In this document: positions 6,965 through 32,000 of the stretch, piece by piece | How positions within the stretch are numbered: position 1 is the first letter of the stretch | How the letters are laid out: every line of letters begins with the position of its first letter | DNA from: Desulfotalea psychrophila LSv54 | GTDB lineage: Bacteria > Desulfobacterota > Desulfobulbia > Desulfobulbales > Desulfocapsaceae | Assembly (NCBI RefSeq): GCF_000025945.1 | Contig: NC_006138.1 | Coordinates: 2,190,001-2,222,000, forward strand | DNA: 32,000 bases | Reading direction: 5' to 3' | The notes under the pieces: model-generated | Databases searched by the model: none | The model's input: only the letters and a program-made list of their open reading frames with translations | Told to the model about the DNA's origin: nothing | Made by a program: the position numbers and the translations under genes

Positions 6965-7008
6965 GGTGTGACGGGGAGGTCTTCCTCGCCACAACCTATT
7001 TAGGCGGC

Positions 7009-8169: not shown

Positions 8170-8204
8170 AGTATCCCTAGATCTAAGTGCTGGATTTCTT
8201 TATC

Positions 8205-9714: not shown

Positions 9715-10761
9715 ATGCAAAAAAAAGATATATTATTTTCTATAGGTTGGCCCCTTTCCTCTCTCTATGCAGGCATTATGAAATTACGTTGCCTACTATA
9801 CCGTCGTGGCCTATTCAGGCAACATCATTTTCCGGTACCTGTTATTTCAGTGGGGAATTTAACCATGGGAGGTACGGGCAAAACACCGGTAACTCATTAT
9901 ATTGCTAAACTCCTGCTTGAACACGGTCTACAACCGGCCATTATTAGTCGTGGCTACTCTGGAAAGTCCGGGGGCGAGGTTAATATTGTCTCCGATGGCC
10001 AGAGGATACTCCTCTCGGCGGAACAGGCGGGGGATGAACCCTATATGCTTGCCTCCATGCTGGCGGGTGTCATTGTTATTACAGGGAAAAAACGATACCT
10101 GTCCTGTAAGTATGCCGTAGAAAAAATGCAGGCAGAGGTGATTATCCTCGATGATGGCTTTCAGCATCTTGCTGTTGCCCGTAATCTTGATCTGGTACTC
10201 TTTGATGCCCAGACGGGCATGGGCAATAATAGGGTTTTTCCCGGTGGAGATCTACGTGAGGCCCGCTTTGCCCTAGATCGAGCGGACGCATTTTTGATTA
10301 CGGGTAAATGTCCACGAGAAGAGGAGGAGTTGTTGGCAATTGAGCTTGAATTACAGCACGAGCTGCCTCAGTGCCCTCTTTTTTCTGTTTATAGAACAGA
10401 GGGTGTTTTTTATTCCGCCAAACAAGAAAAAGTGGTTACTCATCTGCCCAAAAAGGTATTTGCCTTTTGCGGTATTGCCAATCCGGAGAGATTTCATCAT
10501 GATTTAGAGAAGCAGGGCTTTTCCTTGGTAGGTTTCAAGGCGTTTTCTGATCATCAACAGTATACAGGGCAGTGTATAGAGGAGATTGTCAAGGAGGCGA
10601 AAAAAGGTGGAGCTCAGGCAATTATTACTACCGATAAAGATCTGGTGAAAATAGATTCTTTTGCCACAGAGCTACCTCTTTATTCAGCACGACCCAGGAC
10701 AACGATAAGTACAGATTTTGATGAGCTTATATTAAAGACCTGTGCCTCTTTCGGGGAGTAG
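9715..10761 (+). CDS. lpxK: tetraacyldisaccharide 4'-kinase
   Basis: 348-aa ORF with the P-loop VGNLTMGGTGKTP characteristic of LpxK. Confidence 0.88.
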   Translation: MQKKDILFSIGWPLSSLYAGIMKLRCLLYRRGLFRQHHFPVPVISVGNLTMGGTGKTPVTHYIAKLLLEHGLQPAIISRGYSGKSGGEVNIVSDGQRILLSAEQAGDEPYMLASMLAGVIVITGKKRYLSCKYAVEKMQAEVIILDDGFQHLAVARNLDLVLFDAQTGMGNNRVFPGGDLREARFALDRADAFLITGKCPREEEELLAIELELQHELPQCPLFSVYRTEGVFYSAKQEKVVTHLPKKVFAFCGIANPERFHHDLEKQGFSLVGFKAFSDHQQYTGQCIEEIVKEAKKGGAQAIITTDKDLVKIDSFATELPLYSARPRTTISTDFDELILKTCASFGE

Positions 10762-10953: not shown

Positions 10954-11946
10954 ATGAAATTATCTGTAATGCCAAATCAATATACCCTGCGTAAGTCTGT
11001 TAGCTGTTGTGGCGTTGGTCTCCACACAGGAAGAACCGTAAATCTCACCATCAAGCCTGCCCCGGTTGACAGTGGTATTCGCTTCTTTAGAACAGATCTT
11101 CATCCATGCCAAGTAATTAAGGCGCATATGGACAAGATCGTTGATACCCGCCTTGCAACTACCATTGGTGAGGCAGATGCAACTATCTCAACCACCGAGC
11201 ATCTGATGGCAGCCCTGCACGCCTACGGTATTGATAATGCTGATATCGAAATTGATTCTCACGAGGTGCCTATCATGGACGGTAGTGCCGGTCCATTTTT
11301 TAACCACCTTAAATCTTCAGGCAAGAAACGGCAGGATGGACTGAAGAAGGTTTTGCGTGTTATCAAGCCTATTCGCTATCAGCAAGGTGATAAGGTCATG
11401 GAAATTCTTCCCTATGATGGTTTTAAGGTAACAGGAAAAATTTCCTTTGACGATACCATAGATGATGCCATAATAAAGACTCAAAGCTATACCTTTGATA
11501 TGTCGCCGGAGGCTTTTTTGAAGGACATTGCCTCTGCCCGTACCTTTGGCTATGTAGAACAGGTTGAAGAGCTGTGGGCCAATGGTCTTGCTCTGGGTGG
11601 ATCACTTGCCAATGTTATTGCGATCCATTGGAATCGTACCTCTGTGCTTAACGAAGATGGTCTTCGTTACCATGATGAGTTTATTCGCCACAAGGTCCTT
11701 GATATTGTAGGAGATCTCTATTTACTTGGTTGCCCTATTTTAGGTCATGTGAGATCCCATAAAACAGGACATACCGAGCATCGTGCCTTTATGCAGGCCA
11801 TTGCAAATGCTTCTGATTGTTGGGAGTTTTGTGAGCTTAGCTCAAATTCAGGAACCTCTGTACTGGGAAGAGCCATTGACTCTACTCTGGCCGCTGCTGA
11901 GGGTATACTTATGCCTTTCTTCAACCCTCAGCCACTAGTTGCCTAG
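10954..11946 (+). CDS. lpxC: UDP-3-O-acyl-N-acetylglucosamine deacetylase
   Basis: 330-aa ORF with GVGLHTGR, EHLMAAL and HKVLDIVGDL motifs. The start could instead be M6 (10969). Confidence 0.92.
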   Translation: MKLSVMPNQYTLRKSVSCCGVGLHTGRTVNLTIKPAPVDSGIRFFRTDLHPCQVIKAHMDKIVDTRLATTIGEADATISTTEHLMAALHAYGIDNADIEIDSHEVPIMDGSAGPFFNHLKSSGKKRQDGLKKVLRVIKPIRYQQGDKVMEILPYDGFKVTGKISFDDTIDDAIIKTQSYTFDMSPEAFLKDIASARTFGYVEQVEELWANGLALGGSLANVIAIHWNRTSVLNEDGLRYHDEFIRHKVLDIVGDLYLLGCPILGHVRSHKTGHTEHRAFMQAIANASDCWEFCELSSNSGTSVLGRAIDSTLAAAEGILMPFFNPQPLVA

Positions 11947-14038: not shown

Positions 14039-14398
14039 CTACTTCACGATTTCTTTAATTGTATTATCTGGGTTAAGCAGAACAACATTTGGTCTATGCT
14101 CATCTACTTCATCGTCTGAACAGAGGGCATAGGTGACAATAATGAGAAAATCGCCTATCATTCCCTTACGTGCCGCTGCTCCGTTGAGTTGAATTGCACC
14201 GGATCCCGCTTCTCCCTCAATTGCATAGGTTTCAAATCGTTCGCCATTATTTACGTTATAGACATAGATACGTTCATAGGGACGAATACCTGAAGCTTTT
14301 AGCAGATCGGTATCAATAGTGAGACTTCCTTCATAATTCAAGTCAGCAGCCGAAATTGTGGCTCGGTGCAACTTAGCCTTCATCATCTGATGTAACAT
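14039..14398 (-). CDS. panD: aspartate 1-decarboxylase
   Basis: KLHRATISAADLNYEGSLTID contains the pyruvoyl self-cleavage site (G-S). I place the start at ATG 14398 (MLHQMMKAKLHR), which gives about 119 aa, the normal PanD size. The longer ORF to 14503 adds a non-homologous extension. Confidence 0.85.
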   Translation of the reverse strand: MLHQMMKAKLHRATISAADLNYEGSLTIDTDLLKASGIRPYERIYVYNVNNGERFETYAIEGEAGSGAIQLNGAAARKGMIGDFLIIVTYALCSDDEVDEHRPNVVLLNPDNTIKEIVK

Positions 14399-14506
14399 AA
14401 TAATAAACCAATAAAATTTTACCCTCAAGCGGGGAGAGGTGACACGCACTATCCTATTGCGAATAAAATAATGCAGAACACAGCCCAAACAAGGGGCGCA
14501 CAACGC

Positions 14507-14554: not shown

Positions 14555-15415
14555 TTATGTCAATAATGCAGAATTGTCAATAAGACGAATACGTTCAGCA
14601 ATTCGTACAGCAAGTGCCATCACGTTTCCCGGTTGGACTGTTGGGCTAGGTTCAAGTGTCTGTTGGTCAACAATAGAAATATACTCTGGCTCATAACCGG
14701 CATCGATAATCACGCCTCTCGCCTTGGTTATAACCTCATCGCTCTCAATAGTCTTGCCAGCCGCACTCCTTGCCAGGACATAGTCCTTGGCTACTTCCAG
14801 AGCCTGAGAGAGGCAGAGGGCTTTGAGGCGTTGCTCTGCATTAAGATACTTATTTCGAGAGCTCATGGCCAAGCCATCGTCTTCGCGATAGATAGGGCAG
14901 GAGATAATCTGTAGATCGAAATCCAGATCAATAACCAGCTGTTTGATCATTGCTAATTGCTGAAAATCCTTTTCACCAAAGATAGCAAAATCAGGCTGAC
15001 AGAGATGGAAGAGCTTGGTGACAACGGTGGCAACCCCGTCGAAGTGTCCGGGTCTGCCGGCACCACAGAGATCAGCGGTAAGAGTGGTCACGCTAATATT
15101 TGTCTGAAAATTTGGTCCGTACATCTCCGTTGTTTCGGGGCAAAATAAAACATCGGTGCCAAGCTCTTCTGCCAGACGGGAATCTTTTTCATAGGGACGC
15201 GGGTAGGCATCCAGATCTTCACCTGGACCAAATTGGATGGGATTGACAAATAAACTGACAATAAGTCGATCTGCAATCTCCCTTCCCTTTTTTATCAGAG
15301 AAAGGTGGCCCTGATGAAAACAACCCATGGTGGGGACAAGAGCCACGGTAAGGCCTTGCTCCTGCCATTTTTTTACCTGCTCCCGTATCTCTTGTCTGCT
15401 ACTTATCTTTTTCAC
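14555..15415 (-). CDS. panC: pantoate--beta-alanine ligase
   Basis: 286-aa ORF with PTMGCFHQGHLSL (HxGH motif). Its GTG start overlaps the TGA of the upstream gene (GTGA). Confidence 0.92.
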   Translation of the reverse strand: MKKISSRQEIREQVKKWQEQGLTVALVPTMGCFHQGHLSLIKKGREIADRLIVSLFVNPIQFGPGEDLDAYPRPYEKDSRLAEELGTDVLFCPETTEMYGPNFQTNISVTTLTADLCGAGRPGHFDGVATVVTKLFHLCQPDFAIFGEKDFQQLAMIKQLVIDLDFDLQIISCPIYREDDGLAMSSRNKYLNAEQRLKALCLSQALEVAKDYVLARSAAGKTIESDEVITKARGVIIDAGYEPEYISIVDQQTLEPSPTVQPGNVMALAVRIAERIRLIDNSALLT

Positions 15416-21995: not shown

Positions 21996-22409
21996 CTACA
22001 GAAGCTCAAGGCCTGAAAAAAAGTACTCCAATTCAACGGCTGCCGTTTCAGGTGCATCGGAACCATGGGTTGCATTTTCACCTACAATGGTGCCAAATTC
22101 TCTGCGCAGGGACCCAGGTTTGGCATCAGCGGGGTTGGTGGCCCCCATCAGATCGCGCCATTTTCCTATACAGCCTTCTGCTTCAAGGACCATGACGATG
22201 CATGGGCCACTGCTCATAAATTTGGTGAGCTCAGCAAAAAAAGGTTTTTTATTATGTACGGCATAAAAACCTTCTGCCTCCCTTTGGCTCATGCACAGTT
22301 TTTTCAAACCAATTACCGTAAATCCTTCTTGGTAGATGCGGGCAAGAATTTTTCCCGCATTTCCAGCTGCAAATGCATCGGGTTTAATAATAGCAAAAGT
22401 TTTTTCCAT
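21996..22409 (-). CDS. ndk: nucleoside-diphosphate kinase
   Basis: 137-aa ORF with FAIIKPDA and the active-site NATHGSD. An SD (GAGGA) lies upstream. Confidence 0.95.
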   Translation of the reverse strand: MEKTFAIIKPDAFAAGNAGKILARIYQEGFTVIGLKKLCMSQREAEGFYAVHNKKPFFAELTKFMSSGPCIVMVLEAEGCIGKWRDLMGATNPADAKPGSLRREFGTIVGENATHGSDAPETAAVELEYFFSGLELL

Positions 22410-22535
22410 AATTTCCTCGCTTTTAATCCTTGGGGGTTAAAGTGATAAAAAAAGACAAATTTTCGCAAACTTATAAAGATAATTTGTTCCACCTGTAGCA
22501 TTCCGCAGGACAATTGTCAAGAATGGGCTAGTCTC

Positions 22536-23528
22536 CTAGAGACCTGTCAGAACAAAACGAAATAACAAAAAAAGAAGGCTTAACAAAAAAGTTGTGAAGA
22601 GAACAATTCGGTTTGCTTGTCGAATGTCATCCGGTTCTATTGCTCGAAGGGCATTACCTATGTAGGGCTTTTCTACAATATTGCCAAAATAGACACTGGG
22701 GCCACAGAGACGGATATTCAGGGCTCCTGCCAGAGCTGCCTCTGGATGTCCTGCATTGGGACTTGTGTGCTGGTATCGATCTCGCTTAAAAATCTTCCAT
22801 GCCTGAGGGCCGTTATAGCCGGCCATAAAGCTGATGGCCACAATGCCCAGGGCCGTACATCTTGCCGGCAGCCAGTTGGCCCAGTCATCGAGTCGGGCAG
22901 CTGCTCGGCCAAAGAGGATATATCTTTCGTTTTTATAACCCAGCATGGAGTCCATGGTGTTAATGGCCTTATAGCTCATGGCCCCGACAGAGGCCAAAAC
23001 AATCGCCTTTACTCCCAGCAGAGGGGCAAAGATACTTAGGGCCACTGCCCAAAAGAGCGGGGCGATAATGCCATCGGCAAGGTTTTCACCAACGGTCTCC
23101 ACCGTGGCCCTGATAATGGCAGGTCGGTCAAGGTTTTCGGTGTCGCGACCAACAATCCGTGCCAAAAGCTTTCTGGTTTTCGGCAAATCTTCCCCCTGTA
23201 TCAGGGCCCGATAAACGGCCATGCTCTCCTTCTTCAGATCCTTTATTGCCACCGTCGTATAGAGTAGTAACACAGCAGCAAAATCGGTGACTATCGGGGG
23301 AAAAATGGCAAGCAGGGTAAAAAAAACAGCCAAGGTAAGAATCACCAGGGTTAGTACCGAACAGACCGTGAGAACTCCTGCCCAGAAGGGTTGAGCTACT
23401 CTGGGTCTGTAAAATTTTTCCCAACGATTAATGGCCAAACCAATACAGCGCACGGGGTGAGGATAGCATGAGGGATCACCCAAAAAAAGATCGAGAATAA
23501 TGGCTAAGAGTATTTTTATACTGAACAT
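22536..23528 (-). CDS. cbiB: adenosylcobinamide-phosphate synthase
   Basis: 330-aa polytopic membrane ORF. The N-terminal LDLFLGDPSCYPHPVRCIG is characteristic of CbiB/CobD. It directly abuts the upstream stop. Confidence 0.9.
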   Translation of the reverse strand: MFSIKILLAIILDLFLGDPSCYPHPVRCIGLAINRWEKFYRPRVAQPFWAGVLTVCSVLTLVILTLAVFFTLLAIFPPIVTDFAAVLLLYTTVAIKDLKKESMAVYRALIQGEDLPKTRKLLARIVGRDTENLDRPAIIRATVETVGENLADGIIAPLFWAVALSIFAPLLGVKAIVLASVGAMSYKAINTMDSMLGYKNERYILFGRAAARLDDWANWLPARCTALGIVAISFMAGYNGPQAWKIFKRDRYQHTSPNAGHPEAALAGALNIRLCGPSVYFGNIVEKPYIGNALRAIEPDDIRQANRIVLFTTFLLSLLFLLFRFVLTGL

Positions 23529-26090
23529 TTAAAGTCCCAGAAGGTGGTAAATGGCATCCATGTCTACAGATTCGCGTACGGTTTTAGCAAGAGTTTCAAA
23601 GGCCCCGTCAAGGTTATAGGGTGCAAGTACCCTTCCCTCTCTGCTAAGGCCTTTTTTCTGGCGTAGGTCATCAATGAACAGTCGTCTGAAATCATCTGCA
23701 TCAAACATACCATGGAGATAGGCCCCCCAGACGGGCAGATTCTCTGCCTTGTGACCACAGTAGGACCCGTCATTAAAGAGAAAGAGAGGGGCGCTTTTAC
23801 CAACAGAAATGCCATGATGAATTTCATAGCCGTGGACGGCTGTTTGTGAGGATATATGATGACCGGTTTTACGTAATAATTTCTTGTCCTCTCCTATCTC
23901 GGTGCCAATATCAAGAATGCCAAGCCCTTCATCGCTGAGGCGGGCAGACTCTACCCCATGGGGGTCTGAAATTTTTCTCCCCAGCATTTGATAGCCGCCG
24001 CATATACCAACTACGGTGCCACCATCTGTGGCAAACTCCTTAATATATTCAACAAAGCCTCCCTCCTGTAACCAGCGCATATCCCCAAGCACATTTTTTG
24101 AGCCGGGAATAATGATTGCATCGCTGTTCTCAAGCTCAGTAACTCTCGTAACGATCCTGATGTGGACATCTGGTTCGGTTAAAAAGGGCTCTATATCTGT
24201 GAAATTAGAGAGATGCGGCAGAGAAAGAACAGAGATTACCACATGGTCGCCAATAGGTGGCAGACTGTCAAGGGCCCCGGATTTAAAGGAGACAGAGTCT
24301 TCTTCTGGAATACCGAGCTGATGAATATAGGGGACAACCCCAAGAACCTTTCTGCCCGTATGCTGAAGGAGATAATCGTGGGCTGAAGAGAGAAGGCGGG
24401 CATCGCCCCGAAAACGGTTTACCAGAAAACCGGCAACTAGGTCACGTTCCCACTGGGAAAGTACCTCCATGATACCCACAAAGGAGGCATATACTCCACC
24501 CCGGTCAATGTCCCCTACCAGAAGAACAGGAGATTGAGCATGTTGGGCCATACGCATATTGACAATGTCATGTTGCTTCAGGTTCACCTCTCCCGGCGAG
24601 CCAGCACCCTCAAGGATGATGGTATCATATTCCGCCGCCAGTTCATCGTAGGATTCCTGTACCTTATGCCAGGCCTGACCCTTATAGCGATGGTACTGAC
24701 CTACGCTCATATTGCCCACAGGCCTTCCCTGAACGATCACCTGACTGCCCGTATCAGAATTTGGCTTTAAGAGAATAGGATTCATTCGCCAATGGGGATC
24801 AATACAGGCTGCTTGGGCCTGTACCACCTGGGCTCGGCCCATTTCCCTGCCGTCGCGGGTGACAAAGGAGTTTAGTGACATATTCTGCGCCTTAAATGGG
24901 GCTACCTTAATTCCATCCTGGACAAGGATACGGCAGAGGGCGGCGGTGAGTACCGATTTCCCAGCATTGGAACAGGTGCCTTGGAGCATTAGAGCTGGTG
25001 TGGGTCTCTTTTCTCTCTTTTTTTTGCTCGGTACTGTTGCCAGCGAGGTACGCAGGGCTTGGAAGAAGAGATGGTTTTCCTCATGGGTGCGGACGGCAAC
25101 ACGAAAATAGCTCCTGTCCAGTCCACTAAAATTCTCACATGGACGAATGGCAAAGCCGGCCTGAAGCAGTCTTTTCCTGAGAGGCTCAACCGCCCCACCA
25201 TCTCGCAGACGGCAGAGATGGTAGTTGACCCGGGAGGGAAAAACCTCCAGGGCATCTAGTGAACTCAGCTCCTGAAAACAATCCCTGCGGGCAGCCTCCG
25301 CATAGGCGAGGCTCTGTTGCCTATAGGTCTCATCGGCAAAAAGGCGTTTACCCACGGCTTGGGCCAGAGTGTTGACCGTCCAGGGCGGTAGGGCATTATG
25401 CAGGGCCACTTTTAATTCTTCAGAACAGCTACAATATCCCAGACGCAGGCCGGGTAGGGCATAAAACTTTGTCATTGAGTTGAGGGTAATGACATTTTCA
25501 AATCGGCCGGCAAAGCTTGGCTCGTCTGCGATAAAATCCAAAAATGCCTCGTCCAGACAGAACCATACCTCTGGCATGGATTTGATAATATCTGCCAACT
25601 GTTCTGTATCGGGGAGGAGGCCGGTTGGATTGTTAGGCCTGGCGATAAGGGCAAGATCACCCGGTCGTAGAATTTTTTTTAAGCGCTCAAGAGAGAGTTG
25701 AAAACCGTTTTCCGGGGAGAGCTCCACGGGGACAATCTCCTGCCCCGTCTGACTCGCCGCATGATAGTAATCGATATAGGAGGGTACTGGAATAACGATT
25801 CTCTTACTGGGGATGATGCGTAGAAGGGCATAAAGCAACTCTGCTGTGCCGTTTCCCGCCACCACCCTCTTCTCGGAAATGCCATGGTGCCCGGCAATGG
25901 CCTGGCAGAACTCCAGACAATCGGGATCGGGATAATGAATGAGCGTTTCCAACTCATTACTGATCACCGGTCGTAACCATTCAGGGGGCCCCAGGGGGTT
26001 TATATTGGCACTGAAATCGATGATCTTTTGTTCAGCACCTTCGGCCTTTATTTTTCTGAGATTACCGCCATGTTCTTTTCTTTTAATCAT
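23529..26090 (-). CDS. fusion protein: threonine-phosphate decarboxylase (CobD-type aminotransferase fold) joined to cobyric acid synthase (CobQ/CbiP)
   Basis: 853-aa ORF. The N-terminal roughly 355 aa carry HGGN...IDFSANINPLGPP (CobD type). A linker PSKKKREKRPTP follows. The rest carries ALMLQGTCSNAGKS (CobQ N-terminal P-loop) and a C-terminal glutamine amidotransferase region (GICGGYQMLG). Confidence 0.85.
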   Translation of the reverse strand: MIKRKEHGGNLRKIKAEGAEQKIIDFSANINPLGPPEWLRPVISNELETLIHYPDPDCLEFCQAIAGHHGISEKRVVAGNGTAELLYALLRIIPSKRIVIPVPSYIDYYHAASQTGQEIVPVELSPENGFQLSLERLKKILRPGDLALIARPNNPTGLLPDTEQLADIIKSMPEVWFCLDEAFLDFIADEPSFAGRFENVITLNSMTKFYALPGLRLGYCSCSEELKVALHNALPPWTVNTLAQAVGKRLFADETYRQQSLAYAEAARRDCFQELSSLDALEVFPSRVNYHLCRLRDGGAVEPLRKRLLQAGFAIRPCENFSGLDRSYFRVAVRTHEENHLFFQALRTSLATVPSKKKREKRPTPALMLQGTCSNAGKSVLTAALCRILVQDGIKVAPFKAQNMSLNSFVTRDGREMGRAQVVQAQAACIDPHWRMNPILLKPNSDTGSQVIVQGRPVGNMSVGQYHRYKGQAWHKVQESYDELAAEYDTIILEGAGSPGEVNLKQHDIVNMRMAQHAQSPVLLVGDIDRGGVYASFVGIMEVLSQWERDLVAGFLVNRFRGDARLLSSAHDYLLQHTGRKVLGVVPYIHQLGIPEEDSVSFKSGALDSLPPIGDHVVISVLSLPHLSNFTDIEPFLTEPDVHIRIVTRVTELENSDAIIIPGSKNVLGDMRWLQEGGFVEYIKEFATDGGTVVGICGGYQMLGRKISDPHGVESARLSDEGLGILDIGTEIGEDKKLLRKTGHHISSQTAVHGYEIHHGISVGKSAPLFLFNDGSYCGHKAENLPVWGAYLHGMFDADDFRRLFIDDLRQKKGLSREGRVLAPYNLDGAFETLAKTVRESVDMDAIYHLLGL

Positions 26091-26159
26091 GAAACTACCC
26101 CAAATGTCATCCCTGCAGGCCTCTGCTTTTTTGCAAAGATGAGCAACAGGGACCCTGAA

Positions 26160-26933
26160 TTAACCTGCAATAAAGTTCATAGAAAAAAGTAACGCCATAA
26201 GCATCTCTGAAATTTCAGTGATAGCGCCCAAGGTATCCCCCGTTGCCCCACCAATTCGACTCTTACAAAAACGGCCGAAGAGATAGACGCCCGCGCATAT
26301 CACAAGGAGGGAAATAAGAGCAAATTTCAGGGAGATAAGAGAGAGCAGGCAGAAGAGAAAAGCCGTTGCCAGGATGCCTAAACGCAAGCTGTTGGGGGAA
26401 TAAAAGAGAGCTCCCAAACCACCTTCCGGGCGACAGTAACGCTGAGTTGCCATTGCCATAAGCATGGCGCAACGTCCAGCCACGGGGATGAGCAGGGCGG
26501 CGAATGCAAGGTGGAGGGGAGATATGGAGGCCAGGCTGGCGTACTTGACAATCATCAGCAAAACAACGCCGACAAGTCCCATTGCCCCGGTATTACTGTC
26601 CTTCATGATTTCCAGACTGCGTTCAGCAGGACGGGCTGAGAGCAGGCCATCACAGCTATCTGCCAGACCATCCAGATGCAAAAATCCTGATATCCCGGCA
26701 AAGAAGACCAGGAGCAGAGCAGCCACAACGGGCTGGGGCAGGAGTATGGAACTGAGGCAGACCACAATAACCGCCAGCAGACCGATAACAAGACCTACCA
26801 GAGGAAAAAAAGGAGGTGTCTTGTTAAAGTACTTTGCATCATCCCCCGCCCACCACCGCACAGGCAGAATGGTGAGAAAACGAAGGGCCACACAAAATAT
26901 ATGGCAGTTTTTTTTGAGCTGATCAAGCACCAT
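26160..26933 (-). CDS. cobS: adenosylcobinamide-GDP ribazoletransferase (cobalamin synthase)
   Basis: 257-aa polytopic membrane ORF with LRFLTILPV near the N-terminus and a DGLADS motif. An SD (GAGGTGG) lies upstream. Confidence 0.9.
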   Translation of the reverse strand: MVLDQLKKNCHIFCVALRFLTILPVRWWAGDDAKYFNKTPPFFPLVGLVIGLLAVIVVCLSSILLPQPVVAALLLVFFAGISGFLHLDGLADSCDGLLSARPAERSLEIMKDSNTGAMGLVGVVLLMIVKYASLASISPLHLAFAALLIPVAGRCAMLMAMATQRYCRPEGGLGALFYSPNSLRLGILATAFLFCLLSLISLKFALISLLVICAGVYLFGRFCKSRIGGATGDTLGAITEISEMLMALLFSMNFIAG

Positions 26934-26949
26934 CCACCTCTTCTTTAAT

Positions 26950-28017
26950 TTACTTTTCAGGAGCAGTCACTGCTATCTCGTCAAAGGTCGACATGTCGGT
27001 CAGTATCGCTTTGGCACCGTCCACAAGATTCATAGCCATGGCAGCACCTGTTCCCTCTCCCAAGCGAAAGTTGAGATCGAGGAGGGGACGCTTACAGCCA
27101 AGAAATTCCTGCATATGGACATGGCCCGGTTCTACGGAACGGTGGGCAAAGATGAGATAGTCCCTAACAAAGGGTTCTATTTTGGCGGCAATAAGGGCAC
27201 CTGCAGTACTGATGTAGCCATCCACAACCACAGGAATTTTCTTGGCGGCACAACCAATGATAAGCCCTGCGATACCACCTATTTCAAAACCACCGACCTT
27301 GGCAAGAATGTCCAGCCCGTCCTTGCTGTTTGGTTTATTGATTTCAATGCTTTTTTTGATAATATCAATCTTGGTCTGCAGCTCCGCATCGTTGAGTCCT
27401 GAGCCACGACCGGTTATCTCTTCCACGGTTTTTCCGGTACAAACAGCCGCAATGGCAGCAGATGGGGTTGTATTGCCAATCCCCATCTCACCAGTACCAA
27501 TGATATTATATTTGGTACTGAGGGCAAAGGCTACGTCGATTCCTCCCTCCACAGCCCGTACCGCCATGGCCCGGCTCATTGCCGGCCCCTTGGCAATATT
27601 ACCTGTACCAAGACCCACCTTCTTATTGATCAGTTTTTTCTGTTCAACCAGATCCCTGAGATCGGCATTAACGCCCATATCAACCACAAAGACATCGGCA
27701 CCGGCCGAGCGGGCAAGGGCGTTGACGCCTGCGGACCCGCCAATAATGGCATGCACCATCTGAACGGTTACCTCGGCCGGAAACTTACTCACACCCTCGG
27801 CTGCCACCCCATGATCGCCTGCCATGGTAACAATGGCTCTCTTGTCCACCAGTGGTTTTATTGTTCTCTGCATTCCGGCAAGATCAATAGCCAGGTCCAT
27901 CAAATCTCCCAGGGCCCAGTGGGGCATAACAAGATTATCAAGTCGGGCCTTTGCCGCATCGCGGCTATCTGAATCCTGAGGGAAAATTTCCAGTAAAGTT
28001 CTGTCGAGCAAGCTCAT
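26950..28017 (-). CDS. cobT: nicotinate-nucleotide--dimethylbenzimidazole phosphoribosyltransferase
   Basis: 355-aa ORF with GEMGIGNTT and a C-terminal LGEGTGA motif. An SD (GGAGG) lies 7 nt upstream. Confidence 0.92.
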   Translation of the reverse strand: MSLLDRTLLEIFPQDSDSRDAAKARLDNLVMPHWALGDLMDLAIDLAGMQRTIKPLVDKRAIVTMAGDHGVAAEGVSKFPAEVTVQMVHAIIGGSAGVNALARSAGADVFVVDMGVNADLRDLVEQKKLINKKVGLGTGNIAKGPAMSRAMAVRAVEGGIDVAFALSTKYNIIGTGEMGIGNTTPSAAIAAVCTGKTVEEITGRGSGLNDAELQTKIDIIKKSIEINKPNSKDGLDILAKVGGFEIGGIAGLIIGCAAKKIPVVVDGYISTAGALIAAKIEPFVRDYLIFAHRSVEPGHVHMQEFLGCKRPLLDLNFRLGEGTGAAMAMNLVDGAKAILTDMSTFDEIAVTAPEK

Positions 28018-28183
28018 AATAAGCCTCCATATAAATTATTCATTAAGGTCTAAGGACTCCGCTGGTTTTGAGGAGTGCCTGATCAATATCTATTCATTCG
28101 CTATTCGCTATTAGGGATCTGTGTCTATAACAAAAATAGTCCATTACAGCCAAAACTATTTGAGGGGATCGTTCCTTGAACGA

Positions 28184-28723
28184 CTATTTTATTTGCTGTG
28201 ATATTCCGCAGGTTACAAGGTAAACTTCAGAGGCGTTTTCGGCAATAAGCTGATTACAGATGCCCACCAAATCCCGGTATCTGCGAGCCAGGGCGTTATC
28301 CGGGACAATACCAAGCCCAACCTCATTGGTGACACAGATCACCGTGCCGGAAAGGAGCTCTACCTCGGCTAAAAAAAATTGGCACTGCTTTCGGAGTTGC
28401 TCGGTGGAGAAGGCTTTCCCATCCTGTTCATGGAAAAACATTAGATTATTTATCCAAAGGGTGAGGCAGTCAATGAGAACAACACCATCCTCGCCGTTTG
28501 AAGTCGCAATAGCCCGGGCAAGATCAAGCTCCTCTTCACAGGTAGTCCATCCTCTGCCAAGCCGTTCCTCTTTATGGAGACGAACCCGTTCCGTCAATTC
28601 ACCGTCCACCACAGGACAGGTAGCGACAAAGATTCGTCTCTCCGATTTTTTTTCGGCAAGATCAAGGGCAAAACTGCTCTTACCACTCCGACTGCCACCC
28701 GTTACCAGTATAAGTTCTGCCAT
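28184..28723 (-). CDS. cobU: bifunctional adenosylcobinamide kinase / adenosylcobinamide-phosphate guanylyltransferase
   Basis: 179-aa ORF with the P-loop VTGGSRSGKSSFA. Size and pattern fit CobU/CobP. Confidence 0.9.
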   Translation of the reverse strand: MAELILVTGGSRSGKSSFALDLAEKKSERRIFVATCPVVDGELTERVRLHKEERLGRGWTTCEEELDLARAIATSNGEDGVVLIDCLTLWINNLMFFHEQDGKAFSTEQLRKQCQFFLAEVELLSGTVICVTNEVGLGIVPDNALARRYRDLVGICNQLIAENASEVYLVTCGISQQIK

Positions 28724-28770
28724 TTTTCATTCTCTCTACAAATTTTTCATAATAAACCGATGAGATTCCT

Positions 28771-29400
28771 TCAGCCTGATATGGATTTATTAAAACCCGT
28801 TAAAACAGCACCAGTTTCATAGAGATCTACGCTGGCATAGTGGCCAACATCAAGTTTTAGCAGGGTGTAATTGTCAAGGGGGAGTCCCAGCAGGATGCAG
28901 AGAAGATGGCATATTACCCCGCCGTGAGCCACAACCATAATCCTTTCATCTGCACAGGTATTGAGCAGGGGAATGATCTGTTTCATCCGGGCCCGAAAGT
29001 CGGCAACAGATTCTCCACCGGGAAAAGAGAAGGTAGCAGGAGAGCTACACCAGAGATCAAACTCCTGTTGATATTTGGTGTAGACCTGATCAAAGGTCAG
29101 TCCCTCCCAGAAGCCAAAATCAATCTCTTTGAGCAGGGGGTGGTAAGAAACCTGATACTTGCCCGTTAATTCAGCCACCGTTTGCACACAGCGCAGCATG
29201 GGGCTGGCTATGATTCTGGTTGCTTCTTGCAGGGCCGGACTTGCCGCTACCGCCTGTATTTGCTCTACGCCTTGTGCGCTGAGTCCGCAATCCGTTGAAC
29301 CTACATATGTTCCCGTTAGCGGAGTATGGCCATGGCGAAGAAAGTATATTTTTTTCATATGATCTGCAATTGACAAACCCATCCTCTTGGCTAGGGGCAA
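28771..29400 (-). CDS. cobC: alpha-ribazole phosphatase (histidine phosphatase family)
   Basis: YFLRHGHT (RHG catalytic motif) plus cob-operon context. The true start may be ATG 29358 (MKKIYFLRHG) rather than 29400. Confidence 0.8.
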   Translation of the reverse strand: MPLAKRMGLSIADHMKKIYFLRHGHTPLTGTYVGSTDCGLSAQGVEQIQAVAASPALQEATRIIASPMLRCVQTVAELTGKYQVSYHPLLKEIDFGFWEGLTFDQVYTKYQQEFDLWCSSPATFSFPGGESVADFRARMKQIIPLLNTCADERIMVVAHGGVICHLLCILLGLPLDNYTLLKLDVGHYASVDLYETGAVLTGFNKSISG

Positions 29401-29437
29401 AGGGGATGGGTCTTAGGATGGCTCAGCAAGTAAAATT

Positions 29438-31193
29438 TTATGCTGTTTCAGCTAAAAGTTGGTTGAGGGCATTTTGGGCAAAGTCAAGGCTTGCATCAAG
29501 GCTTAAAGCTACGGTGAAAAATTCCACAGCTTCAACTTTATGACCGAGACGCATATAGTTTACCCCGACATTGGCGTAATCAATTCCTGAAGCAGGATTA
29601 AGCTCAATAGCCCGCTTAAAGGAGGAGATTGCCGTCTCATATTGTTCAAGCTTGAAGAAGCATACACCGAGGGTGTTATGCAGATCGGGTCGTTCCTCGT
29701 CAAAGAGCAGACCCTCCTGCAGGGCCTCTATGGCCTCTGCATAACGACCAAGGTCACGAAGACAGCAGCCCTTATAAGAATAAATATAGGGGACATCCTC
29801 TGCCTCTGGCTTCAGGGTCAGGGCCTTATCAAAATGGATAAGGGCTGCTTCGGCGTTGCCGGCTGCGACAAAATTTTTCCCCCGATAAAATTCAAGATAG
29901 TAGGCATCGGGTAAGAGGACACTCATCTCGCCTAATTTTACCTCCTGCTCTGCAGGATCTTCGATGCGTTCAACGAGGAGTTTTGCACAGAAGAGACCGG
30001 CATTACAGATCATTGAGCGTTCACGAAAATGGGCGCCGGGAATAATGGTATAGAGGGCAGGGATTTGCAGCTGGGGATGACAGACATCTATCATATAGAC
30101 ATCAAAACCATTGTTCTTCAGACTATCGAGGCAATTTTTCACTTCGGTATAGATATTATCATCTGAAATATCTACCATCTCGTCAATAGTCACCTGATCT
30201 GCTGTCTCGGTAAGATAGGTAACCTCGCTCATGGACAGAGGTTTAGGTAAACCGGAGGCTATATAATTGGAACCGGTATTGAAATCTCCTGCTAACTGAG
30301 CTACCTCGGTGATGGCTCGAATAATGGCCTTCTCCGGATTTGGAGTAGTACCTGCCGTATAGACAATTTCACTCTTTTCAGGGAAGGTTGAGCGATCAAT
30401 GGCCAGGGCACCAACGGAGGCAATTCCTGTCTCCAGGCTGAAATCATTGAGATATACTTCAATGTTATTTTTGGCAAACTTTTCAAGAAGCTCCACGGCT
30501 ACGGGATCTTTAATCGTCTCTACATCGATCTTTGCCGTTGGTAGTTTATCACGGTTAATTCGAGAGCAGACATCGCGCTCGACAATCTCACAGAGACCTT
30601 GAAGGGCGGCCTCTTCTTGGGTATTACCGGCTGAAGGGCCGTTGAACTCATTAATTGCAAAGAACCAGGAAAAGGGGATAAGAACCTCTCCTTCCTCACC
30701 TGTCATTTTGGTGGCCCAGGTCCACTGCATGGGAATACCGGCAAGAAGTTTTTCTAACTGAGCCACGGTGGTATGGGTATCGTGCACGGATTTAAGTAGA
30801 TGTTCCATGTCTAAGACGGGATAACCTGCTGCCCGCATCTCCTCATAGTCACCAAGCAAAAAATTATCTGCGTTTTTGCTAAATGAGAAAAAAGAGAATC
30901 TCTCGGCAAGTTCCATACAGGCAGATGCTTCGGATTGTATGGGCGAGGCACCCTTGCCCATCTGCTTCTTTGTCCCCGTATATTGAGAGGCATCATCGCC
31001 ACAGACGCTAAAATATACAGGAATATCTAAGCGTCCATTATCAATACGACGAACTTCACTGACTATATTTATATCGAGATTTTTCACCTTGGAATAAAAA
31101 CGTTCAAGGGTTTGTTCCCGGTGTAATTGCCTTGTCTTGATCGGTGGTAAATGTCTTATAGCAATCTTTTAATACTACTGGCTTTTTTTCCAT
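29438..31193 (-). CDS. YcaO-domain protein with a C-terminal TPR domain; the reading frame is interrupted near the 5' end by an apparent +1 frameshift at 31117-31119
   Basis: YcaO signatures are present: MGKGASPIQSEASACMELAERFSFF and SAGNTQEEAALQGLCEIVERDV (the E..ER and ERD ATP/Mg motifs). About four TPRs follow in the last roughly 170 aa. The uninterrupted ORF starts at GTG 31087. A 29-codon ORF from ATG 31193 in the adjacent frame supplies the missing conserved N-terminus. Confidence 0.75.
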
Positions 31194-31451
31194 TACTCTG
31201 CCTATTTCGTTAAGTCTAATAACTGTCTACTGCTAAATTCAGTAGTCATATACATACTCCAGGGATTCAGCCATGGACGGGCAAACAACAACTGGCCAAC
31301 TCAAAAAGATCATCTCTTTAAACCCGGAGGCTAAGTCGTACGGGCCATTGTCCACGCACAACATCATCATCAATGGGGCAAAAGGCAATCAATAATCCCC
31401 AAAAAAAACTTGGTCTCAGGAATAGATCGATACTCATAGAGGAGAGAACGC

Positions 31452-31937
31452 TTACTCCCCCTTCTCTCTATGCAAAAGAAATTCTTTTATCTTATGTCCC
31501 CAGGAACTTGCCTCTTTACAGGAGAAGCGCACAGCCCTGCTCTCTTCGTCTACAAAGCTTATCTGCAAATATAAACTCTGTTCAGGAATAAGATCATAGG
31601 CACGAGAGGGCCACTCTATAACGGTGAGTCCTCCACCATAAAAGTACTCCTCAAAACCAAGGTCTATTACCTCATCCTCCCCACCAAGTCGATAGAGATC
31701 CATATGATAGAGGGGGATTCGTCCCTGATATTCATGGAGGATGGCAAAGGAGGGGCTAGTCACATACTCCCTCGGATCAACTTCGAGGCCACGGGCAATA
31801 TACTGGGTCAGAGTTGTTTTACCAGCCCCTAAATCGCCCTCAAGACAAATGACATCGCCTGCCTCGGCCACATGTCCCAGGAAGAGTCCCAATATTTCTG
31901 TTTCAGCAAGAGAGCTAATATTATAAGAGAGGTCCAT
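31452..31937 (-). CDS. tsaE: tRNA threonylcarbamoyladenosine biosynthesis protein TsaE
   Basis: 161-aa ORF with the P-loop LEGDLGAGKTTL and a HMDLYRL motif typical of TsaE/YjeE. Confidence 0.9.
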   Translation of the reverse strand: MDLSYNISSLAETEILGLFLGHVAEAGDVICLEGDLGAGKTTLTQYIARGLEVDPREYVTSPSFAILHEYQGRIPLYHMDLYRLGGEDEVIDLGFEEYFYGGGLTVIEWPSRAYDLIPEQSLYLQISFVDEESRAVRFSCKEASSWGHKIKEFLLHREKGE

Positions 31938-32000
31938 ATTTTTTTTGACTTAAATTAAGTTTTACACACCTTGTGAGTTTAGATAAGGCTGGATGTCGCA

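What the first reader, a model, noticed from the sequence alone, without database searches (positions are those of the whole stretch)
29438..31193. YcaO-TPR protein encoded as the first gene of the cobalamin nucleotide-loop operon
YcaO enzymes use ATP to activate peptide backbone amides (azoline, thioamide or amidine formation) or, in E. coli, assist RimO. This one keeps the ATP/Mg-binding acidic motifs (MELAERF and EIVERDV) and carries a C-terminal TPR domain of about 170 aa, a likely protein or peptide docking module. No cyclodehydratase partner (E1-like/Ocin-ThiF), dehydrogenase or TfuA gene is nearby. Instead the gene ends 37 nt before cobC and is co-directional with cobC-cobU-cobT-cobS-cobD/Q-cbiB. 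I know of no described role for a YcaO in corrinoid metabolism. The linkage could mean modification of a B12-dependent or B12-handling protein, or an ATP-dependent amide chemistry step on the corrinoid or lower-ligand side. It could also be coincidental.
Basis: inference. Interest (0 to 1): 0.7.

Follow-up and report, generated by a model that had tools for sequence, protein, structure and literature searches.

The report
Sulfate-reducer YcaO-TPR enzyme beside B12 genes
This is the Desulfotalea copy, broken by a one-base frameshift in the deposited sequence, of a conserved but uncharacterised YcaO-TPR enzyme of sulfur-respiring Desulfobacterota, and its position beside the vitamin B12 genes is a gene order confined to one bacterial family, not evidence of a role in B12 metabolism.

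Summary
The window is Desulfotalea psychrophila. A YcaO domain followed by 5-6 TPR repeats is really encoded on the minus strand, 37 nt upstream of cobC-cobU-cobT-cobS-cobD/Q-cbiB. However, 29438-31193 is not one open frame. An extra G at 31117-31119 puts the conserved first ~35 codons in another frame, and the database entry starts at GTG 31087 (549 aa, against 580-587 aa in all relatives).

The protein belongs to a ~580-aa family found across Desulfobacterota. D. vulgaris DVU2210 is of this type (molybdate-sensitivity phenotype, function unknown).

The cob linkage was found only in close relatives: 20 of 51 informative Desulfobulbales species, all with at least 63% YcaO identity. The gaps run from 12 nt to 7.5 kb and are often filled by unrelated genes. 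It is absent from 23 more distant Desulfobulbales species and from 80 Desulfovibrionales loci. No cobalamin riboswitch was found.

Elsewhere the recurrent neighbours are canonical dsrC (three deep branches) and a lysine-methyltransferase-like gene.

The closest characterised relatives are thioamide-forming YcaOs. Only E. coli YcaO, the uL16 thioamidase, shares the full two-domain architecture.

Most likely it is a stand-alone, TPR-guided protein backbone-amide activating enzyme, probably a thioamidase, with no role in corrinoid chemistry. The dsrC association is the lead worth following.

The parts
31104..31193 (-). N-terminal fragment of the ycaO-TPR gene in the ancestral start frame: ATG 31193, 29 codons (MEKKPVVLKDCYKTFTTDQDKAITPGTNP), stop TGA 31106-31104
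   Evidence: Matches the conserved N-terminus of all homologues (VLKDCFKTFTxDQDKAITPEET).
31117..31119 (-). GGG run holding one extra base relative to relatives (CCGGGAAC against CCnGAAC). This is the site of the +1 frame disruption, either a sequencing error or a real mutation.
   Evidence: DNA alignment A1. Removing one G gives a 584-aa product, the family length.
29438..31087 (-). Annotated YcaO-TPR ORF (549 aa from GTG 31087). It is identical to the NCBI Desulfotalea psychrophila protein.
   Evidence: P0001, 100% identity.
30032..30961 (-). YcaO ATP-dependent amide-activating domain (residues 43-352)
   Evidence: Pfam PF02624, 244.6 bits. AF2 model with pLDDT 92. Foldseek match to M. jannaschii YcaO, E 1.7e-16.
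30899..30916 (-). MELAER acidic motif (residues 58-63). M58 and E62 are invariant and E59, L60 and R63 nearly invariant in the 22-sequence family alignment.
30575..30634 (-). YcaO ATP-binding motif S-x6-E-x3-Q-x3-E-xx-ER (SAGNTQEEAALQGLCEIVER, residues 152-171). The first Ser corresponds to the residue mutated (S195R) in molybdate-resistant D. vulgaris DVU2210.
   Evidence: Sequence. Motif definition and DVU2210 data from PMC7774982.
29444..30001 (-). C-terminal TPR domain: 12 helices, about 5-6 repeats, residues 363-548
   Evidence: Pfam TPR_1/2/8/11/12 hits. DSSP on the AF2 model.
29401..29437 (-). ycaO-cobC intergenic spacer, 37 nt to TTG 29400 (79 nt if cobC starts at ATG 29358). No terminator-like hairpin and no riboswitch found here.
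22536..29400 (-). Neighbouring cobalamin nucleotide-loop / late cluster (context, not part of the YcaO system): cobC 29400-28771, cobU 28723-28184, cobT 28017-26950, cobS 26933-26160, cobD-cobQ fusion 26090-23529, cbiB 23528-22536
   Evidence: Pfam and NCBIfam.
31452..31937 (-). tsaE, the co-directional upstream neighbour. It is the most widely conserved neighbour within Desulfobulbales (48 of 68 informative loci).

Best explanation
The gene is the Desulfotalea psychrophila member of a conserved ~580-aa two-domain protein family, YcaO domain plus C-terminal TPR domain. The family is found throughout sulfur-respiring Desulfobacterota and is the family type of D. vulgaris DVU2210.

In the deposited sequence a single extra G separates the first ~35 codons from the rest. 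The gene is therefore either mis-sequenced or an N-terminally truncated, inactivated allele.

Its position in front of cobC-cobU-cobT-cobS-cobD/Q-cbiB is gene order inherited within one family (Desulfocapsaceae). It sits in a block of unrelated housekeeping genes (dnaJ, leuCD-like, tsaE, ycaO, cob, ndk) and is not a functional coupling to corrinoid metabolism.

Mechanism, by inference. The TPR domain docks a folded protein or a peptide tail. The YcaO domain uses ATP to O-phosphorylate one backbone amide of that substrate. A sulfide equivalent then displaces phosphate to give a thioamide, without TfuA. This is what its closest catalytic relatives (the archaeal McrA-modifying YcaOs) and the only solved YcaO with the same architecture (E. 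coli YcaO on ribosomal protein uL16) do.

The substrate is unknown. Gene neighbourhoods in other lineages (dsrC, DsrE, a MoaE-like gene, NIL-ferredoxin, a lysine-methyltransferase-like gene) point to a protein target and/or sulfur donor linked to the Dsr sulfur-relay system.

Shown here: domain content, motifs, frameshift, family membership, distribution of neighbours.
Inferred: thioamidation, TPR docking, the Dsr connection.
For: Identity:
- Pfam YcaO at 244.6 bits plus TPRs, and an intact ATP motif.
- AF2 model with pLDDT 92.4.

Family:
- 100% match to the D. psychrophila protein and hundreds of 580-587-aa homologues.
- About 19 full-length 50%-identity clusters with the same length and architecture.
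- Named members are Desulfobulbales, Desulfovibrionales, Thermodesulfobacteria, Dissulfuribacterales-type organisms and Syntrophobacterales.
- The DVU2210 ATP motif quoted in PMC7774982 matches 15 of 20 residues and is of the Desulfovibrionales clade type.

Frameshift.

The cob linkage is clade-limited:
- Among GTDB species loci with at least 9 kb downstream, 20 of 51 have the cob cluster. By YcaO identity the counts are 14 of 16 at 66% or more, 6 of 12 at 63-66%, and 0 of 23 below 63%.
- Only 4 have cobC within 300 nt.
- The intervening genes are Sel1, an opposite-strand ORF, FadL, HD-GYP, or cbiG/cbiH.
- 0 of 80 Desulfovibrionales loci carry cob genes.
- No cobalamin riboswitch was found.

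Mechanism:
- The best NCBIfam hit is the McrA-glycine thioamidation YcaO.
- The best PDB sequence and fold matches are M. jannaschii YcaO.
- E. coli YcaO is the only solved structure that aligns over both domains (551-603 columns). It is now known to thioamidate uL16 through a TPR-containing, acidic protein without TfuA (PMC13063428).
- The window protein has pI 4.55.

Sulfur and protein context elsewhere:
- Canonical dsrC is directly adjacent on three branches that share only 34-38% YcaO identity.
- In Desulfovibrionales, dsrC is downstream in 13 of 21 clusters and the methyltransferase upstream in 16 of 19 clusters, after dereplication at 70% identity.
- DsrE, MoaE-like and NIL-Fer4 neighbours also occur.
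Against: - No biochemical datum exists for any member of this family. The thioamide chemistry is inferred from relatives at 16-23% identity, and all curated subfamily HMMs score far below their cut-offs.
- D. vulgaris lacking DVU2210 respires sulfate normally (PMC7774982), so an essential role in the Dsr pathway is unlikely.
- dsrC adjacency could itself be inherited synteny within Desulfovibrionales. Outside that order it rests on two loci. It is absent from all 82 Desulfobulbales loci, including this window.
- The cob adjacency is tight in a few species (12-68 nt), where co-transcription is likely. cbiG also sits directly downstream of ycaO in Desulfofustis and in one unrelated locus, so a weak functional tie cannot be excluded.
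- My survey of Desulfobulbales was capped at the 80 best of more than 581 genome hits.
Confidence: 0.6

Rival explanations
1. First reader's idea. The YcaO-TPR is a functional part of the cobalamin nucleotide-loop operon. It either modifies a B12-handling or B12-dependent protein, or performs ATP-dependent amide chemistry on the corrinoid or lower ligand.
For: - Co-directional, with a 37-79 nt gap and no predicted terminator.
- The adjacency is kept in about 20 species of several genera: Desulfotalea, Desulforhopalus, Desulfopila, Desulfofustis, Desulfoprunum and Desulfosediminicola.
- cbiG lies directly downstream of ycaO in Desulfofustis loci and in one distant locus, L092.
Against: - Absent in 23 of 23 more distant Desulfobulbales species, in 80 of 80 Desulfovibrionales loci and in 7 of 8 deep-branch loci.
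- The junction accepts unrelated insertions of up to 7.5 kb and an opposite-strand gene.
- No B12 riboswitch.
- The same block also keeps tsaE, dnaJ, leuCD-like genes and ndk in order, so this is general synteny.
Confidence: 0.06
2. The protein is the Desulfobacterota functional equivalent of E. coli YcaO and thioamidates ribosomal protein uL16, or another translation component.
For: - Same length and two-domain architecture as EcYcaO, which is the only full-length structural match.
- Acidic pI of 4.55, against 4.4 for EcYcaO (PMC13063428).
- Translation-related neighbours recur: tsaE in 48 of 68 loci, lepA overlapping the ycaO start in L086, prmA and a PrmA-like methyltransferase in Desulfovibrionales, and mnmA, gatB or valS in deep branches.
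Against: - The EcYcaO family HMM scores 44 bits against a cut-off of 700, and identity is 16-17%.
- Family pI values range up to 6.8, so acidity is not a conserved trait.
- Rice et al. predict uL16 modification for Pseudomonadota only.
- The neighbours are housekeeping genes that are common everywhere.
Confidence: 0.15
3. The enzyme works with DsrC. Either DsrC (a TusE-type sulfur carrier) delivers the sulfur atom for thioamidation in place of TfuA/ThiS, or the flexible Cys-bearing C-terminal arm of DsrC is itself the TPR-docked substrate.
For: - Canonical dsrC (C-terminus CKMAGLPKPTGCV) lies 157-391 nt downstream on the same strand in 32 of 65 informative Desulfovibrionales loci, or 13 of 21 clusters at 70% identity.
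- It is seen in the isolate D. ferrophilus.
- It lies downstream in L090 (Thermodesulfobacteria/Dissulfuribacterales-type branch) and upstream in L089.
- Other sulfur-handling neighbours are DsrE (twice), MoaE-like and NIL-Fer4.
- DVU2210 shows epistasis with sat and is mutated during loss of sulfate respiration (PMC7774982, PMC8319347).
Against: - No dsrC lies near ycaO in any of 82 Desulfobulbales loci or in this window.
- The DVU2210 deletion grows normally on sulfate.
- Outside Desulfovibrionales only two loci support it.
- No paper in the searched library links the two, so there is no independent support.
Confidence: 0.25
4. Small-molecule activation. The YcaO domain adenylates or phosphorylates an oxyanion (molybdate or sulfate), as proposed by Zane et al. 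to explain molybdate sensitivity.
For: Deleting sat and DVU2210 together, or the S195R change in the ATP motif, confers molybdate resistance (PMC7774982). A MoaE-like gene is a recurrent neighbour.
Against: All characterised YcaOs act on peptide or protein backbone amides. A conserved ~185-aa TPR domain argues for a protein partner. The authors themselves note that indirect explanations are possible.
Confidence: 0.06
5. In this strain the gene is a non-functional remnant, and its presence next to cob has no present-day function at all.
For: A one-base insertion removes the conserved N-terminal ~35 residues from the main frame. DVU2210 is dispensable and loss-of-function alleles are selected in the laboratory.
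Against: The remaining 549 codons are intact and 74-78% identical to the closest relatives. This suggests a very recent event or a homopolymer sequencing error in the deposited genome sequence. No second D. psychrophila sequence was available to decide.
Confidence: 0.3

Closest known systems
[quoted passage not shown] 2020, PMC7774982)
   Same: Same domain architecture and the same ATP motif type. The window protein aligns end to end at about 40% identity with the Desulfovibrionales clade, to which the DVU2210 motif belongs. Function is unknown in both.
   Different: Different order (Desulfobulbales against Desulfovibrionales). The Desulfovibrionales genes usually sit between a Methyltransf_16-like gene and dsrC, whereas this one sits between tsaE and cob genes. 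The DVU2210 sequence itself was not available for a direct comparison.
E. coli YcaO (PDB 4Q84-4Q86; uL16 Met82 thioamidase, Rice et al. 2026, PMC13063428; earlier called the RimO/S12 accessory factor)
   Same: About 580 aa, with an N-terminal YcaO domain and a C-terminal TPR-type helical domain. It is the only solved structure that aligns over the full length. It is stand-alone with no TfuA, acts on a folded protein, and is acidic.
   Different: Only 16-17% identity. NF040716 scores 44 bits against a cut-off of 700. The relative domain orientation differs (rmsd 11-13 A). The E. coli TPR is not detected by sequence, whereas this protein has canonical TPR_1/TPR_2 repeats.
Archaeal McrA-glycine thioamidation YcaO (TIGR03266; M. 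jannaschii MJ1094, PDB 6PE3/6PEU; M. kandleri 6CI7)
   Same: Closest catalytic domain by HMM (135.9 bits), by phmmer (78 bits) and by fold (E 1.7e-16, target TM-score 0.69). M. jannaschii also works without TfuA.
   Different: Below the family cut-off of 365. The archaeal enzymes are about 380 aa and lack a TPR domain. Their substrate, McrA, is not expected in this sulfate-reducing bacterium (prior knowledge, not tested).
Azoline-forming cyclodehydratase YcaOs (SagD/TIGR03604; LynD, TruD, MusD)
   Same: Shared YcaO fold and ATP site.
   Different: 91.5 bits against a cut-off of 219. No E1-like/Ocin-ThiF partner or fusion, no dehydrogenase and no precursor peptide gene were seen. The C-terminus is a TPR domain rather than a Pro-rich tail.

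Membership tests
YcaO superfamily (PF02624) | YcaO domain HMM above the gathering threshold | tested here: met
   244.6 bits against 25.7, residues 43-352.
YcaO superfamily (PF02624) | ATP-binding motif S-x6-7-E-x3-Q-x3-E-xx-ER and an upstream acidic motif | tested here: met
   SAGNTQEEAALQGLCEIVER and MELAER are in the translation. The core residues are invariant across 22 family members. Motif definition as quoted in PMC7774982.
YcaO superfamily (PF02624) | YcaO fold | tested here: met
   AF2 pLDDT 92.4. Foldseek match to 6PEU/6PE3 at E 1.7e-16 and to 6CI7, 4V1T and 4Q86.
DVU2210-type YcaO-TPR family of Desulfobacterota | About 580 aa, YcaO domain followed by a C-terminal TPR domain, alignable end to end | tested here: met
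   32-74% identity over the full length to 21 members. The TPR domain is residues 363-548.
DVU2210-type YcaO-TPR family of Desulfobacterota | Intact conserved N-terminal segment (K..FT.DQDK..P.ET) in frame with the YcaO domain | tested here: not met
   The segment is present but in a different frame because of an extra G at 31117-31119. This may be a sequencing error.
DVU2210-type YcaO-TPR family of Desulfobacterota | Direct sequence comparison with DVU2210 itself | not tested
   The DVU2210 sequence was not on hand. Only its 20-aa ATP motif from PMC7774982 could be compared (15 of 20 identical).
E. coli-type YcaO (NF040716; uL16 thioamidase) | Family HMM above cut-off | tested here: not met
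   44 bits against 700. phmmer against 4Q84 gives 29 bits.
E. coli-type YcaO (NF040716; uL16 thioamidase) | YcaO plus C-terminal TPR-like domain, acidic protein | tested here: met
   Full-length Foldseek alignment of 551-603 columns at TM about 0.45. pI 4.55. Features as described in PMC13063428.
E. coli-type YcaO (NF040716; uL16 thioamidase) | Thioamidation of uL16 | not testable with these tools
   Needs mass spectrometry of ribosomal proteins or a reconstitution.
McrA-glycine thioamidation YcaO (TIGR03266) | Equivalog HMM above cut-off; McrA substrate; usually a TfuA neighbour | tested here: not met
   135.9 bits against 365. No TfuA in the window. The bacterial host is not expected to have MCR (prior knowledge, not tested).
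Azoline-forming cyclodehydratase YcaO (TIGR03604) | HMM above cut-off; E1-like/Ocin-ThiF partner; precursor peptide and dehydrogenase nearby | tested here: not met
   91.5 bits against 219.25. No partner domains were found among the window ORFs scanned against Pfam: all ORFs of at least 150 aa at 1-22000 and the named cluster genes at 22000-32000.
Cobalamin nucleotide-loop operon (functional member) | Co-localisation with cob genes conserved across independent lineages | tested here: not met
   20 of 51 informative Desulfobulbales loci, all with at least 63% YcaO identity; 0 of 23 below that; 0 of 80 Desulfovibrionales loci; one isolated cbiG.
Cobalamin nucleotide-loop operon (functional member) | Shared B12 regulation (cobalamin riboswitch upstream) | tested here: not met
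   No Rfam hit in the window or in seven related loci.
Cobalamin nucleotide-loop operon (functional member) | Co-transcription with cobC | not testable with these tools
   The consensus scans are uninformative. RNA data are needed.

The most novel reading that the evidence does not exclude
The YcaO-TPR family is an unrecognised accessory of dissimilatory sulfur metabolism. It would be a TfuA-independent protein thioamidase, working with a lysine-methyltransferase-like partner, that either draws its sulfur from DsrC or a DsrE-type relay, or modifies DsrC or another Dsr-pathway protein. This would explain both the dsrC adjacency on three deep branches and the epistasis of DVU2210 with sat. The Desulfotalea gene next to cob would be an orthologue that has lost that neighbourhood.
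Probability: 0.25. Interest if true: 0.75.

Novelty: new member of a known kind. Interest (0 to 1): 0.4.

Why it matters
As proposed (a YcaO acting in B12 metabolism), the finding would have been a new chemistry for corrinoid biosynthesis. The comparative data make that unlikely, so the window itself shows an ordinary, possibly frameshifted, member of an already noticed family.

What remains of value is the family. It is a ~580-aa YcaO-TPR protein found in every sampled order of sulfate-reducing and sulfur-disproportionating Desulfobacterota. It has a genetic phenotype (molybdate sensitivity, mutations during loss of sulfate respiration) but no known reaction.

E. coli YcaO, the only solved structure with the same two-domain architecture, was shown in 2026 to thioamidate a ribosomal protein. 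That result, together with the dsrC and methyltransferase neighbourhood found here, turns 'function unknown' into testable hypotheses about a protein backbone modification in sulfate reducers and its sulfur donor.

Tried and rejected
- Rfam at gathering threshold on the whole window, at E-value threshold on 28500-32000, and at gathering threshold on seven related loci. No cobalamin riboswitch was found. The only hit was a chance match to a human lncRNA model (E 0.017).
- Sigma-70 promoter and terminator scans on 28000-32000. The counts were no higher than in shuffled sequence, so they are uninformative about operon structure.
- The GTDB genome scan returned only the 80 best of more than 581 hits, all Desulfobulbales. 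Other lineages had to be sampled through a clade-specific metagenome scan and 12 single look-ups. Deep branches are therefore thinly sampled.
- Isoelectric point as a proxy for a basic, ribosomal substrate. The window protein is acidic (4.55), but the family spans 4.5-6.8, so the result is inconclusive.
- Programmed +1 frameshifting at the in-frame TGA (CCU UGA A). Rejected, because relatives have a contiguous frame and the conserved P-E-x-T motif is only restored by deleting one G, not by slipping at the stop.
- The Chem. Rev. 2017 YcaO review was not held in the library. A search for YcaO together with DsrC returned no paper.
- My greedy ORF caller picked antisense ORFs in GC-rich Desulfovibrionales loci (clusters 3, 6 and 10). 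The neighbour counts were therefore redone with tblastn.
Full report
**1. What is in the sequence**

The best database match of the ORF is a 100% identical protein of Desulfotalea psychrophila on a 3.52-Mb contig. The window is therefore from that chromosome.

The minus strand carries, in order:
- tsaE (31937-31452)
- the YcaO-TPR ORF (31087-29438)
- a cobC-type histidine phosphatase (29400-28771)
- cobU (28723-28184)
- cobT (28017-26950)
- cobS (26933-26160)
- an 853-aa fusion of threonine-phosphate decarboxylase CobD with CobQ (26090-23529)
- cbiB (23528-22536)
- ndk (22409-21996)

The YcaO ORF scores 244.6 bits on Pfam YcaO (residues 43-352) and has canonical TPR_1/TPR_2 repeats at ~403-545. 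The ATP motif S-x6-E-x3-Q-x3-E-xx-ER (as quoted in PMC7774982) is intact as SAGNTQEEAALQGLCEIVER.

No E1-like/Ocin-ThiF, dehydrogenase or TfuA domain was found. All ORFs of at least 150 aa at 1-22000, and the named cluster genes at 22000-32000, were scanned against Pfam.

**2.

The span 29438-31193 is not one reading frame.
- ATG 31193 opens MEKKPVVLKDCYKTFTTDQDKAITPGTNP and stops at TGA 31106-31104.
- The YcaO frame is displaced by one base, and its first possible start is GTG 31087.
- All relatives are 580-587 aa and begin with ...VLKDCFKTFTxDQDKAITPEETLKRFY... in one frame.
- A DNA alignment with three relatives shows a single extra base in the window in CCGGGAAC, the GGG run at 31119-31117.
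- Deleting one G gives a 584-aa protein of family length.

This is either a homopolymer sequencing error or a real, very recent inactivating or truncating mutation. The remaining 549 codons are undamaged and 74-78% identical to the closest relatives. No second D. psychrophila sequence exists in the protein collection to decide the matter.

A programmed +1 shift is unlikely, because the conserved P-E-x-T motif is only restored by removing the base.

**3. The family**

An exhaustive HMMER search of 50%-identity representatives finds about 19 full-length clusters of 572-619 aa. All have the same YcaO-then-TPR layout and are 32-53% identical to the window protein.

Named members come from:
- Desulfobulbales
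- Desulfovibrionales: Desulfovibrio, Pseudodesulfovibrio, Desulfobaculum, Desulfocurvus, Desulfonatronum, Solidesulfovibrio
- Thermodesulfobacteria, Dissulfurimicrobium, Dissulfurirhabdus, Thermosulfuriphilus and the Syntrophobacterales Desulfosoma and Desulfacinum

All of these are organisms with dissimilatory sulfur metabolism.

One protein of this type has been studied genetically, DVU2210 of D. vulgaris ('YcaO-like, TPR domain protein').
- Deleting it, or an S195R change in the first Ser of the ATP motif, makes a sat deletion mutant molybdate-resistant.
- The single mutant respires sulfate normally, and the native function is unknown (PMC7774982).
- The gene is also among those hit during laboratory evolution towards syntrophy (PMC8319347).
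- The 20-aa DVU2210 motif printed in the paper matches the window protein at 15 of 20 positions. It is of the type seen throughout the Desulfovibrionales clade.

**4. Is the cob linkage meaningful?**

(a) Desulfobulbales. I fetched 80 species-level loci from GTDB genomes, all Desulfobulbales with 57-75% YcaO identity. I located homologues of every neighbouring window gene by tblastn.

Of 51 loci with at least 9 kb downstream, 20 carry the cobC...cbiB cluster downstream. By YcaO identity the breakdown is:

| YcaO identity | Loci with cob cluster |
|---|---|
| 66% or more | 14 of 16 |
| 63-66% | 6 of 12 |
| 60-63% | 0 of 13 |
| below 60% | 0 of 10 |

The positive genera are Desulfotalea, Desulforhopalus, Desulfopila, Desulfofustis, Desulfoprunum and Desulfosediminicola.

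Even in this clade cobC is within 300 nt in only 4 loci, and the gaps run from 12 nt to 7.5 kb. The gaps contain:
- a Sel1-repeat gene, directly downstream of ycaO in 14 loci
- an opposite-strand ORF in Desulforhopalus
- a 7.3-kb insert with a FadL-type porin, a cNMP-binding methyltransferase and two HD-GYP proteins
- in 11 loci, cbiG and cbiH

The same block also keeps dnaJ, a leuCD-like pair, tsaE and ndk in order. This is what inherited synteny of unrelated housekeeping genes looks like.

In more distant Desulfobulbaceae the downstream genes are waaF and gmhB.

(b) Desulfovibrionales. A clade-specific scan of metagenome contigs gave 80 loci. None has any cob gene, and 37 of them have at least 5 kb downstream.

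(c) Deep branches. Eight single look-ups on deep branches gave lepA, tsaE/waaF, DsrE twice, dsrC twice, NIL-ferredoxin/mnmA, asparaginase, and one lone cbiG 42 nt downstream (L092).

(d) Riboswitch. No cobalamin riboswitch is found in the window or in seven related loci.

In sum, the linkage extends beyond this genome but not beyond one family, and its junction is permissive to insertions. Co-transcription with cobC in D. psychrophila is possible, since the gap is 37-79 nt with no terminator. That would be incidental. The two independent ycaO-cbiG adjacencies (Desulfofustis and L092) are the only residue in favour of a B12 tie. I put that reading at about 6%.

**5. What recurs instead**

In Desulfovibrionales two neighbours are strongly conserved.
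- A Methyltransf_16-type (protein-lysine-methyltransferase-like, PrmA-related) gene ends 15-180 nt upstream in 55 of 70 informative loci.
- Canonical dsrC, with C-terminus ...GPGKGACKMAGLPKPTGCV, starts 157-391 nt downstream on the same strand in 32 of 65 informative loci.
- After dereplication at 70% YcaO identity the counts are 16 of 19 and 13 of 21 clusters.
- A 121-aa MoaE-like gene is directly downstream in four loci and further downstream in eight more.

The isolate Desulfovibrio ferrophilus IS5 shows the full arrangement:

| Gene | Coordinates in L173 |
|---|---|
| Methyltransf_16-like methyltransferase | 5262-5996 |
| YcaO-TPR | 6001-7728 |
| DsrC | 7987-8304 |
| MoaE-like | 11126-11491 |

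dsrC is also the immediate neighbour on two other deep branches. It is upstream in L089 and downstream in L090. L090 belongs to a branch of Thermodesulfobacteria, Dissulfuribacterales-type organisms and Syntrophobacterales.

These three branches share only 34-38% YcaO identity and straddle the midpoint root of a neighbour-joining tree.

Other deep loci carry two DsrE genes, or a NIL-4Fe4S protein.

None of the 82 Desulfobulbales loci, nor the window, has dsrC or the methyltransferase nearby. No paper in the searchable library mentions YcaO and DsrC together.

**6. How it most likely works**

By curated HMMs the protein is no member of any characterised subfamily:

| NCBIfam model | Score (bits) | Cut-off (bits) |
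|---|---|---|
| McrA-thioamidation YcaO | 135.9 | 365 |
| SagD-type cyclodehydratase | 91.5 | 219 |
| E. coli-type YcaO | 44 | 700 |

The ranking is nevertheless informative.
- The nearest catalytic domains by sequence and by fold are the thioamide-forming archaeal enzymes. MJ1094 scores 78 bits by phmmer, and 6PEU gives Foldseek E 1.7e-16.
- The AlphaFold model is confident (pLDDT 92.4, pTM 0.86). It shows the YcaO fold followed by 12 TPR helices.
- The only solved structure that aligns over both domains is E. coli YcaO (551-603 aligned columns, TM about 0.45, 16-17% identity).

E. coli YcaO was shown in 2026 to thioamidate Met82 of ribosomal protein uL16. It recognises the folded substrate, has a ~150-residue TPR domain, is very acidic (pI 4.4) and works without TfuA. 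Its physiological sulfur donor is unknown (PMC13063428). The window protein has pI 4.55, but the family spans 4.5-6.8.

I therefore propose the following. The TPR domain docks a protein substrate. The YcaO domain phosphorylates one backbone amide with ATP. A sulfide equivalent then gives a thioamide.

The sulfur-relay neighbours (DsrC, a TusE homologue; DsrE; MoaE-like; NIL-Fer4) fit either a sulfur-delivery role or a Dsr-pathway substrate. The adjacent methyltransferase fits a second modification of the same protein.

All of this is inference. None of the chemistry is shown for any family member.

**7. Comparison, novelty and verdict**

The gene works like, but is not a sequence-level member of, the E. 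coli uL16-thioamidase family or the archaeal McrA-thioamidase family. It is a member of the DVU2210-type family, with the caveat of the frameshift.

The finding as stated, a YcaO in corrinoid metabolism, is not supported, and the window feature is a new member of a known kind.

The wider family remains an open problem. The dsrC and methyltransferase neighbourhood, seen outside this window, is a concrete and apparently unreported lead. I give about 25% to the reading that the family is an accessory of dissimilatory sulfur metabolism.

Overall interest is 0.4.

Noticed in passing
window 31104-31193 and 31117-31119 (minus strand): One-base insertion in a GGG run. It splits the conserved first ~35 codons of ycaO-TPR from the annotated 549-aa ORF. 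The database annotation starts at an internal GTG.
   Followed up: yes
L173 5262-8304 and 11126-11491 (Desulfovibrio ferrophilus IS5, AP017378.1); L093-L172: In Desulfovibrionales the orthologous gene sits in a conserved arrangement: Methyltransf_16-like methyltransferase, YcaO-TPR, canonical dsrC, often with a 121-aa MoaE-like gene nearby. No paper in the searched library links YcaO and DsrC.
   Followed up: partly
L089 7579-7896 and L090 9944-10264: Canonical dsrC is also the immediate neighbour of ycaO-TPR on two other deep branches of the family, once upstream and once downstream.
   Followed up: partly
window 23529-26090 (minus strand): CobD (threonine-phosphate decarboxylase) and CobQ (cobyric acid synthase) are fused into one 853-aa ORF. 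The same 850-855-aa fusion is present in related genomes (L002, L004).
   Followed up: no
L086 6199-8004 / 8001-9752: In one distant relative the lepA (EF4) stop codon overlaps the ycaO-TPR start by 4 nt, which suggests translational coupling with a ribosome-associated GTPase.
   Followed up: no
L091 1-1399 and 8001-9743: A Thermodesulfobacterium-type contig carries a second YcaO gene without TPR hits, 6.6 kb upstream of the YcaO-TPR gene. A NIL-4Fe4S ferredoxin gene lies directly downstream of the YcaO-TPR gene.
   Followed up: no
L092 9797-11044; L037, L044, L046 (Desulfofustis): cbiG lies 22-45 nt downstream of ycaO-TPR in Desulfofustis species and in one unrelated clade-2 contig. This is the only hint of an independent second association with a cobalamin gene.
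   Followed up: partly
L002 9754-10518 and 13 other Desulfobulbales loci: A ~254-aa Sel1-repeat protein gene is inserted directly downstream of ycaO-TPR, between it and cobC, in 14 species. It is absent in D. psychrophila.
   Followed up: partly
window 22536-29400 and loci L002, L004, L007, L009, L010, L015, L022: None of these cob clusters has a detectable cobalamin riboswitch at the Rfam gathering threshold.
   Followed up: partly
window 14039-14503 (minus strand): The aspartate decarboxylase (panD) ORF has a TTG start and about 35 residues ahead of the Pfam domain, so the start is probably called too far upstream. It lies next to panC (14555-15415).
   Followed up: no
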